64,000 nt of DNA, taken from assembly GCF_009914755.1 (NCBI RefSeq), contig NC_060938.1; one strand, given 5' to 3'. The notes under the pieces are model-generated. The model was not told the DNA's origin and did not search any database. It saw only the letters and a program-made list of their open reading frames with translations. Below, one piece after another: positions 43,749 through 45,710 of this stretch. Position 1 is the stretch's first letter. The number at the start of each line of letters is the position of its first letter. Source of the DNA: the human T2T-CHM13v2.0 reference genome, Homo sapiens. The position numbers and the translations under genes are program-made.

Positions 43749-44885
43749 AGTAGAAATGGGGTTTTACCATGTTGGCCAGGCTGGTTTTGAATGCCTGACC
43801 TCAAGTGATCCTCCCATTTCAGCCTCCTAAAGTGCTGGGATTACAGGGATGAGCCACCATGCCTGGCCATATTTTTAAGTTCTTGCTAAAGTTCTGCCAC
43901 ATCACCATTACTTTCTCCTCTCATCTTGTTAATTACAGAGATAGAATAGTTAAAATATTTTCCATGTATTTAGTAGTCATTGGTATTTCTTTTTCTGCAA
44001 ATTGACTATTGGTGGGTTTTGCTTATTTTTTCCATTACAGTTTTAGTGCTTTTGTGATTTATCTATATGAATTTGTTATATGTTGATTTGACACAAGAGT
44101 ATACCATATCTCCCTTGAGATTTCTTTCATTACTAAGCATAAATTCTTAGAACGTCTTTCCCTTAAAAATTCCTCCCCCCTGGCCAGGCACTGTGGCTCA
44201 TGCCTATAATTCCAGCACTTTGGGAGGCCAAGGCAGGTGGATCACTTGAGGTTGGAAGTTTGAGACCATCCTGGCCAACATGGTGAAACCTCATCTCTAC
44301 TAAAAATATCAAACTTAGCCAGGTGGCTATGCACCTGTAATTCCAGCTACTTGGGAGGCTGAGTTGGGAGGATCGCTTGAACCCAGGAGCTGGAGGTTGC
44401 AGTGAGCTGAGAGCATGCCACTGCCCTCAAGCCTGGATGACAGAGCAAGACTCTACCTCAAAAAAAAAAAAAAAAAAAATTCCTGCCCCAGAACTCTTTC
44501 TTACAAAAATACTGCTAATGTTCACCTGGGATATTCACTGCAGAATTTCAGTGACAAAATATAGAAACAGCTGGGCGTGGTGGCTCATGCCTGTAATCCC
44601 AGCACTTTGGGAGGACAAGGCGAGTGGATCACCTGAGGTCAGGAGTTCGAGACCAGCCTGGCCAATATGGTGAAACCCCGTCTCTACTAAAAAGGCAAAA
44701 ATTAGCTGGGCGTGGTGGTGGGCACCTGTAATCCCAGCTACCTGGGAAGCTAAGGCAGGAGAATCGCTTGAACCTGGGAGGCGGAGGTTGCAGTGAGCCG
44801 AGATCGAGCCATTGCACTCCAGCCTGGGCAACAAGAGCAAAACTCTGTCTCAAAATAATAATAATAATAATTGAAAAAAAAAAAA

Positions 44886-44988
44886 CTGTCCCCATGATCT
44901 CATTAGCTCCTCCCAGGCCCCACCTCCAGCACTGGGGATTACGTTTCAACATGAGATTTGGGTAGGGACACAGATCCAAACCATATCA
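44886..44988 (-). mobile_element. MSTA (ERVL-MaLR) LTR, 5' ~100 bp, inverted relative to the rest of the element
   Basis: Minus strand reads TGATATGGTTTGGATCTGTGTCCCTACCCAAATCTCATGTTG...GAGATCATGGGG, the start of the MST LTR. Confidence 0.85.
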
Positions 44989-45710
44989 CTACCCAAGTGT
45001 ATAATTTAATCTTTATCACCTACCTCAGTGCATGCCCAAAGATATTCACTACTAACAGTTCCATGTATATCCTTCCAATACTTTTCTAGATATGTACAGG
45101 TGTGTGTTTGTGTATGTGTATGGGTGTATATAACATAGTTTTCCCTAGTATACATAGGATACTACTTTACTTATAGTGCTGTGGCTTTTATTTTTCATGT
45201 GACATCAGAGACACTTTTCCATATGATATACATCTCCCTTATATCTTTTCTCTCTCTCTCTCTTTTTTTTTTTTTTTTTTTTTTTTTGGCATTCTGGGGT
45301 GGGCCCGAAACATCTCCCTTACATCTAATGTCTGCCTAGTATTTTATAGTATGGATGAACCTCCGCCTCCCAGGTTCAAGCATTTCTCCTGTCTCAGCCT
45401 CCGGAGTAGCTGGGATTACAGGTGCCCACCACCACGCCTGGCTAATCTTTTGTATTTTTAGTAGACATGGGGTTTCACCATGTTGGCCAGGCTGGTCTCG
45501 AACTCCTGACCTAAGGTGATCCACCTGCCTCAGCCTCCCAAAGTACTGGGATTACAGGCGTGAGCCACCATGCTTAGCCTATTTTATTTTTTTTGAGACA
45601 GGGTCTCACTATGTTGCCAAGGCTGGTCTCAAACTCCTGAACTCAAGCGATCCTCCTGCCTCAGCCTCCCAAAGTGCTGGGATTATGGGTGTGAGCCACC
45701 GCGCCTGGCC

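What the first reader, a model, noticed from the sequence alone, without database searches (positions are those of the whole stretch)
44570..45710. Cryptic Alu-Alu mediated inversion revealed by two split repeat fossils
Seen: the first ~100 bp of an MSTA LTR lie on the minus strand (44886-44988), while its continuation lies on the plus strand (45711-46341). The two break ends carry matching degenerate TSD copies on opposite strands (AGATCATGGGGACAG minus at 44886-44900; AGATCACAGGGGCAG plus at 45711-45725). Independently, an old L1ME-like 3' end reads sense on plus up to 44569 (GATATTCACTGCAG...AAAATATAGAAACA), continues on minus from 45357 (CATCCATACTATAAAATACTAGGCAGACATTA...) to ~45000, and resumes on plus after 46341. 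Flipping the segment between the oppositely oriented Alus at 44570-44885 (+) and 45358-45580 (-) restores both fossils. Inference: an inversion of ~0.6-1.0 kb by recombination between inverted Alus, ~16 kb upstream of PPP2R5E. Its age and polymorphism are unknown.
Basis: partly seen in the sequence, partly recalled or inferred. Interest (0 to 1): 0.75.

Follow-up and report, generated by a model that had tools for sequence, protein, structure and literature searches.

The report
Small old inversion between inverted Alus
About half a kilobase of repeat-derived DNA 16 kb upstream of PPP2R5E has been flipped, splitting an old LTR between two oppositely oriented Alu elements; this is an ordinary, probably neutral example of a known kind of rearrangement.

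Summary
The inversion is real. The first 103 bases of an MST-type solo LTR lie on the minus strand (44886-44988). The rest lies on the plus strand (45711-46341, interrupted by an Alu).

When mapped on seven intact copies from the same genome, the two pieces run from the LTR's first base to its last. They overlap by exactly 15 bases. That overlap is the target-site duplication of an old Alu-monomer insertion, and its two copies now lie on opposite strands.

The second fossil, an old L1, is only weakly supported. 44481-69 reads sense on plus and 45310-57 on minus, with about 45-60 bases of L1 missing between them. The 3'UTR pieces gave no signal.

The flipped unique segment is 472 bp (44886-45357), or up to 788 bp if Alu sequence is included. 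The event was not a clean reciprocal Alu-Alu exchange:
- The left Alu (44570-44885) is full length and may be chimeric.
- The right Alu (45358-45579) stops at about Alu position 220 and abuts L1 directly.
- One junction is therefore non-homologous and carries a deletion.

The event postdates the two AluS-like elements. Its age and whether it is polymorphic could not be tested. The kind is known (Lee et al. 2008), the locus is not in their list, and interest is low.

The parts
44481..44569 (+). Old L1 ORF2 C-terminal piece (A) in sense orientation. It ends at the 5' end of the left Alu. This is the putative insertion site of the ancestral plus-strand Alu 'P'.
   Evidence: local alignment to 13 L1 copies gives z=5.7 in 2 of 13 at homologous positions (L014 1862-1905, L017 1835-1916) on plus, and z>2 in 0 of 13 on minus; best blastn E=0.03. 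This is weak evidence.
44570..44885 (+). Full-length AluS-like element (B). Its tail runs 44852-44873 and is followed by an A12 run at 44874-44885. It is probably chimeric, with the 5' part from ancestral Alu P and the 3' end or tail from ancestral minus-strand Alu Q. The left inversion junction lies somewhere inside it or in its tail.
   Evidence: Its tail abuts the minus-strand copy of the 15-base duplication, and its 5' end abuts L1. No matching flanking duplication was found (score 4.3, rank 51 of 67); non-CpG divergence is 11/187 in columns 1-219 and 2/51 in columns 220-280.
44886..44988 (-). MST-type solo LTR, bases 1-103 (C), inverted. Its last 15 bases (44886-44900) are one copy of the monomer's target-site duplication.
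   Evidence: aligns to 7 of 7 intact copies and starts at the LTR's first base in 6 of 7.
44989..45357 (-). Original upstream flank of the LTR (D), inverted together with it. Its right end (45310-45357) is L1 ORF2 C-terminal sequence on the minus strand. It contains a small later retro-insert at 45247-45309.
   Evidence: The LTR's intact 5' terminus at 44988/44989 shows that this flank moved with the LTR; z>2 in 7 of 13 on minus and 1 of 13 on plus for 45310-45357. There was no signal for the rest.
45358..45579 (-). AluS-like element (E) holding only Alu positions 1 to about 220. The 3' part and tail are missing. Its truncated end at 45357/45358 is the right inversion junction, which is non-homologous.
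   Evidence: it stops at consensus column 219 of 293; 88.4% identity to B over B positions 6-220; non-CpG divergence 9/187.
45580..45710 (-). Older free Alu monomer, FLAM-like (F), with a short A-rich tail at 45580-45594. Its 5' end abuts the plus-strand copy of the 15-base duplication. The Alu at 45358-45579 inserted into its tail.
   Evidence: non-CpG divergence is 12/102, about twice that of B and E.
45711..46341 (+). Rest of the MST-type LTR (G), from base 89 to the 3' terminus, not inverted. 45711-45725 is the second copy of the 15-base duplication. An Alu(+) at 45980-46285 sits inside it with a perfect 18-base duplication.
   Evidence: aligns to 7 of 7 intact copies at 83-88% identity. 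Its end coincides with the end of the copies' likeness in 6 of 7.

Best explanation
This is a fixed-looking micro-inversion that arose at a convergent, tail-to-tail pair of inverted AluS-like elements about 0.5 kb apart.

Inferred order of events:
1. An old L1 was present.
2. An MST-type solo LTR inserted into its 3' region.
3. A free Alu monomer inserted into the LTR at about base 103, on the minus strand, duplicating 15 bases.
4. An AluS-like element Q inserted on the minus strand into the monomer's A-tail.
5. A second AluS-like element P inserted on the plus strand into the L1, about 0.5 kb upstream.
6. The DNA between P and Q was flipped.

At the left junction, P sequence was joined to Q's 3' end or tail through Alu-Alu or tail homology. 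That produced the full-length Alu at 44570-44885, whose tail now touches the inverted LTR head.

At the right junction, the broken end of Q (Alu position about 220) was joined without homology to L1 sequence. P's downstream target-site copy and roughly 45-60 bases of L1 were lost. If the crossover lay further 5', about 150 bases including P's 3' end were lost instead.

What is shown: the split LTR, the opposite-strand duplication, the truncated right Alu, and the relative ages. What is inferred: the existence of P as a separate element, the position of the crossover, and the break-and-repair route. The event most likely has no function.
For: - LTR pieces are contiguous, with a 15-base overlap that intact copies carry only once.
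- One copy of the overlap lies directly after the A-run of the plus-strand Alu. The other lies directly after the 5' end of the minus-strand monomer. That is what flipping one side of a single insertion produces.
- The LTR 5' terminus is intact at 44988, so the flank 44989 onward moved with it.
- The only discontinuity to the right is the Alu truncated at column 219. Alus insert with complete 3' ends (established knowledge), so a 3'-truncated Alu marks a breakpoint.
- The inverted Alu arms are 86-88% complementary (pairs I2 and I13).
- The left Alu begins at Alu base 2-3, exactly at the L1 boundary, which fits an insertion junction. It has no matching flanking duplication.
- The monomer is about twice as diverged as the two Alus: 12/102 against 11/187 and 9/187 non-CpG changes. 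This supports the order of events.
- L1 orientation is plus at 44481-44569 and minus at 45310-45357.
- Lee et al. 2008 (PMC2603318, sections 6, 7 and 14 read) report 28 Alu recombination-mediated inversions between human and chimpanzee, averaging 0.8-1.9 kb. Of their 49 retrotransposon-mediated cases, 12 were accompanied by deletion of internal sequence and/or of the retrotransposons.
Against: - No reciprocal chimeric Alu exists at the right junction.
- Chimerism of the left Alu is not demonstrable. Differences between the two Alus are spread evenly (5, 6, 3, 4, 8, 0 per 40 columns), and divergence of its 5' and 3' parts does not differ.
- The end of the left Alu's tail (44866-44879) could be read by eye as a decayed copy of its 5' flank (44556-44569). 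If so, that Alu would be an intact insertion and the left junction would also be non-homologous.
- About 25 of 67 Alus in the window also lack a detectable duplication in my crude screen, so the missing duplication is not unusual.
- L1 evidence is weak, and absent for the 3'UTR parts.
- No outgroup or second human haplotype was available, so the pre-inversion state was never seen.
Confidence: 0.6

Rival explanations
1. The same inversion formed by two non-homologous joins (end joining or replicative template switching), with small deletions at both junctions. The Alus acted only as fragile or hairpin-forming sites or as bystanders. The left Alu would be an intact insertion with its own decayed duplication. 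The 3' end and tail of the minus-strand Alu and about 45-60 bases of L1 were lost.
For: - The right junction is clearly non-homologous, joining Alu position about 220 to L1.
- A possible decayed copy of the left Alu's 5' flank lies at the end of its tail (read by eye).
- There is no detectable mosaic structure in the left Alu.
- Lee et al. 2008 list 22 Alu-associated inversions in which an Alu spans only one breakpoint, and find that about 30% (75 of 252) of inversions involve deletions.
Against: - The candidate duplication lies in an A/T-rich tail, and essentially one informative base supports it.
- It would be a coincidence that the left break fell within a few bases of the end of an Alu lying in inverted orientation to the Alu that carries the other break.
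Confidence: 0.3
2. There was no inversion. The two LTR pieces are independent insertions of different MST-type copies, and the Alus are unrelated.
For: None beyond the general abundance of such LTRs. One search found 6309 first-look candidates in the genome.
Against: - The pieces cover the LTR exactly once from its first to its last base, with a 15-base overlap.
- That overlap is bracketed by an Alu tail on one side and an Alu-monomer head on the other.
- An LTR fragment holding only the first 103 bases is not a normal insertion product (established knowledge).
Confidence: 0.02
3. The arrangement is an assembly error, or a private or rare haplotype of the sequenced genome, rather than the common human state.
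For: Only one haplotype was seen. Nothing here tests other humans.
Against: - The locus is single copy in this assembly. Searches found only the locus itself, plus one 40-base low-complexity match.
- Both junctions are embedded in ordinary, diverged repeat sequence.
- There is no positive evidence of error.
- The locus is absent from the 49 human- or chimpanzee-specific cases of Lee et al. 2008; the chr14 rows of their Table S1 lie at 35.45, 75.80 and 94.56 Mb in hg18. That is weak evidence that human and chimpanzee agree here.
Confidence: 0.04

Closest known systems
Alu recombination-mediated inversion (Alu-RMI; Lee, Han, Meyer, Kim and Batzer 2008, PLoS One 3:e4047)
   Same: - Two oppositely oriented Alus sit at the two breakpoints of a sub-2-kb inversion.
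- The flanking target-site duplications no longer match.
- A deletion accompanies the event, as in 12 of their 49 loci.
   Different: - Only one full-length, possibly chimeric Alu is left, and the reciprocal product is truncated.
- The ancestral state was not observed, so the crossover cannot be placed.
- The locus is not among their 49 listed loci.
- The age may well be greater than the human-chimpanzee split.
Alu-associated inversion with an Alu at only one breakpoint, or inversions flanked by deletions made by end joining or template switching
   Same: The right junction joins Alu position about 220 directly to L1, with loss of sequence.
   Different: Here an inverted partner Alu is present at the other junction, which makes a contribution from homology likely.
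L1 twin-priming inversion
   Same: It also leaves one old L1 in pieces of opposite orientation. The L1 here may carry such a 5' inversion further left, with 43936-44079 on minus.
   Different: Twin priming happens during L1 insertion. It cannot invert an LTR and an Alu-monomer duplication that arrived later, so it does not explain 44886-45357.

Membership tests
Alu recombination-mediated inversion (Lee et al. 2008) | Two Alus in opposite orientation span the two inversion breakpoints. | tested here: met
   Alu(+) at 44570-44885 and Alu(-) at 45358-45579 sit at the two junctions. Their arms are 86-88% complementary.
Alu recombination-mediated inversion (Lee et al. 2008) | Both junction Alus are chimeric, each made of the front of one ancestral element and the back of the other. 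| tested here: inconclusive
   The left Alu is full length, but no switch point is detectable. The right Alu lacks everything beyond column 219. The paper allows accompanying deletions in 12 of 49 loci.
Alu recombination-mediated inversion (Lee et al. 2008) | The pre-inversion arrangement, with two intact Alus, is seen in an outgroup. | not testable with these tools
   No primate or second human assembly is available. Exact 20-mer scans for the right junction in genome contigs and viral contigs found nothing.
MST/THE1-type (MaLR) solo LTR | Likeness to other genomic copies over the whole LTR, from terminus to terminus. | tested here: met
   7 of 7 copies align at 80-88% identity. The pieces begin and end where the copies' mutual likeness begins and ends, in 6 of 7 copies at each end.
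MST/THE1-type (MaLR) solo LTR | Assignment to subfamily MSTA. | not testable with these tools
   No Dfam or RepeatMasker library is available. The family name is recalled from the look of the sequence.
L1 (old, L1M-type) 3' end | ORF2 C-terminal homology in the stated orientations. | tested here: inconclusive
   One search gives orientation-specific but weak signals: 2 of 13 for 44481-44569 and 7 of 13 for 45310-45357. tblastn and a profile search found neither piece. The neighbouring minus-strand piece at 43936-44079 is clear (13 of 13 copies, E 2.6e-5 to 5.5e-4), although those copies were chosen by that same match.
L1 (old, L1M-type) 3' end | 3'UTR continuity across the LTR (44989-45253 on minus, then 46342 onward on plus). 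| tested here: inconclusive
   There is no signal in either orientation against 13 L1 copies. The LTR's 5-base flanks do not match, at 2 of 5 by eye. I see a resemblance only from memory of L1M consensus sequences.

The most novel reading that the evidence does not exclude
The inversion may be human-specific, or still polymorphic in humans, rather than an old primate-wide event. It would then be a previously uncatalogued sub-kilobase inversion allele, with an inverted Alu pair still in place, 16 kb upstream of the PPP2R5E promoter and 3.4 kb from an annotated enhancer (49146-49968). Its effect on expression could then be tested.
Probability: 0.07. Interest if true: 0.35.

Novelty: new member of a known kind. 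Interest (0 to 1): 0.15.

Why it matters
It matters little beyond being a well-resolved example. It shows that repeat fossils and their target-site duplications alone can reveal a cryptic sub-kilobase inversion. It also shows that inverted Alu pairs can give inversions with one homologous and one non-homologous junction. No exon or annotated regulatory element lies in 44570-45710 in the hub's annotation table. It would matter more only if the inversion proved lineage-specific or polymorphic.

Tried and rejected
- **Own-genome DNA searches.** Queries were the L1-like pieces. They found only the locus itself, plus one 40-base low-complexity match. There is therefore no paralogue, and these searches yielded no L1 reference copies.
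- **Recalled Pfam accession.** An accession I recalled for the L1 ORF2 C-terminus does not exist in the library.
- **L1 reference copies.** I obtained 13 L1 copies through a 29-residue open frame.
- **DNA profile of those 13 copies.** nhmmer found only the seeding region.
- **tblastn with their ORF2 C-termini.** It found only 43936-44079 on the minus strand. Hits inside 44989-45357 were low-complexity.
- **3'UTR pieces.** There was no signal in either orientation.
- **Mosaic test on the two Alus.** Nothing was found.
- **Inverted-duplicate idea.** I asked whether the left Alu's first 220 bases are an inverted duplicate of the right Alu. This was rejected. Their identity of 88.4% is second highest of 85 Alu matches in the window, but unrelated Alus reach 87.1-89.4%.
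- **Screen for flanking duplications.** It is too crude to be decisive.
- **Exact scans for the right junction.** There were 0 matches in genome contigs and 0 in viral contigs.
- **Literature: search listings.** Searches for inverted-Alu mechanisms and for PPP2R5E with inversion gave nothing on this locus (listings only).
- **Literature: Chaisson et al. 2019 (PMC6467913).** Its only passage naming PPP2R5E concerns UTR indels.
- **Literature: supplements of that paper.** The three supplements held as text contain none of my estimated hg38 coordinate prefixes. That estimate is my own conversion and may be off.

Full report
**Layout (window coordinates)**

| Label | Coordinates | Strand | What it is |
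|---|---|---|---|
| - | 44183-44480 | + | Ordinary Alu with its own flanking duplication (D19) |
| A | 44481-44569 | + | Short L1-like stretch |
| B | 44570-44885 | + | Full-length Alu; tail followed by a run of 12 A |
| C | 44886-44988 | - | First 103 bases of an MST-type LTR |
| D | 44989-45357 | - | Non-Alu sequence |
| E | 45358-45579 | - | Alu holding only positions 1 to about 220 |
| F | 45580-45710 | - | Older Alu monomer with a short A-rich tail |
| G | 45711-46341 | + | Rest of the LTR, interrupted by an Alu(+) at 45980-46285 with a perfect 18-base duplication |

**The LTR fossil is real**

- No other copy of the pieces exists in the window.
- The window's own genome can be searched. 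The plus-strand LTR piece gave 40 scored matches of 6309 first-look candidates, and I used seven other copies (L002-L008).
- The reverse complement of C aligns to 7 of 7 copies (E 3e-19 to 5e-29). In 6 of 7 it begins exactly where the copies' mutual likeness begins, which is the LTR's 5' terminus. L002 is a 5'-shortened copy.
- G aligns to 7 of 7. It ends where the mutual likeness ends in 6 of 7.
- In the four copies where the local alignments reach the piece ends (L005-L008), C and G overlap by exactly 15 bases. Each of those copies carries that stretch once. In the other three copies the alignment of C stops at its base 82 or 94, so the overlap cannot be read.
- The two 15-mers agree at 12 of 15 positions. 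One follows the A-run of B on the minus strand. The other follows the 5' end of F on the plus strand.

This is what results when one side of a single Alu-type insertion, with its target-site duplication, is flipped. Independent insertions do not explain it.

**Extent of the inversion**

- The LTR's 5' terminus is intact at 44988. Its original upstream flank (44989 onward) must therefore have moved with it.
- The first discontinuity to the right is at 45357/45358. There an Alu stops at column 219 of a 293-column alignment of 66 window Alus.
- Alus insert with complete 3' ends and tails (established knowledge), so this is a breakpoint.
- On the left, the breakpoint lies between the L1/Alu boundary (44569/44570) and the A-run (44885).
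- The flipped segment is therefore 472 bp of unique sequence, and at most 788 bp.

**The L1 fossil is only weakly supported**

- DNA searches of the genome with A, D or the neighbouring L1 piece found only the locus itself.
- A 29-residue open frame at 43936-44022 on the minus strand retrieved 13 L1 copies. These carry the ORF2 stretch that I recognise from memory as lying about 200 residues before the C-terminus.
- tblastn confirms that minus-strand piece in 13 of 13 copies, extended to 44079 in two of them. The copies were selected by that same match.
- For A, local alignment gives z=5.7 in 2 of 13 copies at homologous positions on plus, and z>2 in 0 of 13 on minus.
- For 45310-45357, z>2 in 7 of 13 on minus and in 1 of 13 on plus. 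Four of those hits sit where the ORF2 motif expected there lies. Two are shifted in copies that carry a microsatellite, and one in a copy that does not.
- blastn E-values are only 0.03-0.6.
- Mapping through the ORF2 numbering of the copies indicates that about 45-60 bases of L1 are missing between the end of A and the start of inverted D.
- A profile search, tblastn and alignments of the 3'UTR parts gave nothing.
- My impression that D and the pieces after 46341 follow an L1M-type 3'UTR, ending near 47136, rests on memory only.

**The Alus**

- B and E are 88.4% identical over B positions 6-220. That is second highest of 85 Alu matches in the window, but unrelated Alus reach 87.1-89.4%. E is therefore not a recent copy of B.
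- Non-CpG divergence from the window consensus is 11/187 (B, columns 1-219), 2/51 (B, columns 220-280), 9/187 (E) and 12/102 (F). The background median is 0.066 (n=66).
- F is therefore older. B and E are of ordinary AluS-like age; the name is recalled.
- Differences between B and E are evenly spread, and no mosaic boundary is visible.
- B has no matching flanking duplication outside its tail (score 4.3, rank 51 of 67). About 25 of 67 Alus score 5 or less in that crude screen.
- By eye, the end of B's tail could be a decayed copy of its 5' flank. Essentially one informative base supports this reading.

**Most likely history**

1. The monomer F inserted into the LTR, duplicating 15 bases.
2. 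An AluS-like element Q inserted into F's tail. E is its first 220 bases. The A12 next to C is the remainder of F's tail.
3. A second AluS-like element P inserted on the plus strand into the L1, at the end of A. P and Q formed a convergent inverted pair about 0.5 kb apart.
4. The intervening DNA was then flipped. On the left, P was joined to Q's 3' end or tail through homology, giving B. On the right, Q's broken end was joined to L1 without homology, with loss of P's downstream duplication and about 45-60 bases of L1. More was lost if the crossover lay further 5'.

I put this at about 0.6. A purely non-homologous two-break or template-switch event, with deletions at both junctions, is at about 0.3. 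That an inversion of some kind occurred I put above 0.9.

**Comparison with what is known**

- Lee et al. 2008 (PMC2603318; abstract, sections 6 and 14, passages of section 7, and Table S1 rows for chr14 read) describe 28 Alu recombination-mediated inversions between human and chimpanzee. These average 0.8-1.9 kb.
- Of their 49 retrotransposon-mediated loci, 12 have accompanying deletions.
- They also list 22 inversions with an Alu at only one breakpoint.
- Their three chr14 loci lie at 35.45, 75.80 and 94.56 Mb in hg18. These are not near PPP2R5E, whose hg18 position I recall as about 63 Mb.
- This is weak evidence that human and chimpanzee share the arrangement.
- Searches for the gene name with inversion found nothing relevant.

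**Age and function**

- The event is younger than the two AluS-like insertions. Such elements are a few tens of millions of years old (established knowledge, not measured here). There is no lower bound.
- It overlaps no exon or annotated regulatory element in the hub's table. The nearest enhancer is 49146-49968.
- It lies 15.8 kb upstream of the PPP2R5E start at 28775.

**Verdict**

The feature is genuine but ordinary.

Noticed in passing
window 43936-44079 (-) next to 44160-44569 (+): A clear L1 ORF2 fragment on the minus strand (tblastn, 13 of 13 L1 copies) lies head-to-head with the plus-strand L1 piece. A weak hit at 43033-43101 (-) to reference residues 74-97 (E 2.2) would place its far end about where the plus-strand piece begins. 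That pattern fits a twin-priming 5' inversion of the same old L1.
   Followed up: partly
window 45230-45326: A 63-base retroposed scrap lies on the minus strand at 45247-45309, made of 22 bases, A26 and (GA)7. It is flanked by 17-base direct repeats at 45230-45246 and 45310-45326 (D16). Its source is unknown.
   Followed up: no
window 46374-47134: The 10-mer at 46374-46384 recurs at 46687-46697 and 47114-47124. An Alu(-) sits between the first two copies. An 85-base unique stretch plus another Alu(-) sits between 20-base repeats at 46688-46707 and 47115-47134 (D17). This looks like two nested insertions at one target site, one of them carrying non-Alu sequence beyond its A-tail.
   Followed up: no
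window 45962-46303: The Alu(+) at 45980-46285 inside the LTR has a perfect 18-base target-site duplication. This is better preserved than those of its neighbours.
   Followed up: no
window 43696-43739: A T-run of about 45 bases lies in the middle of the Alu(-) at 43549-43868.
   Followed up: no
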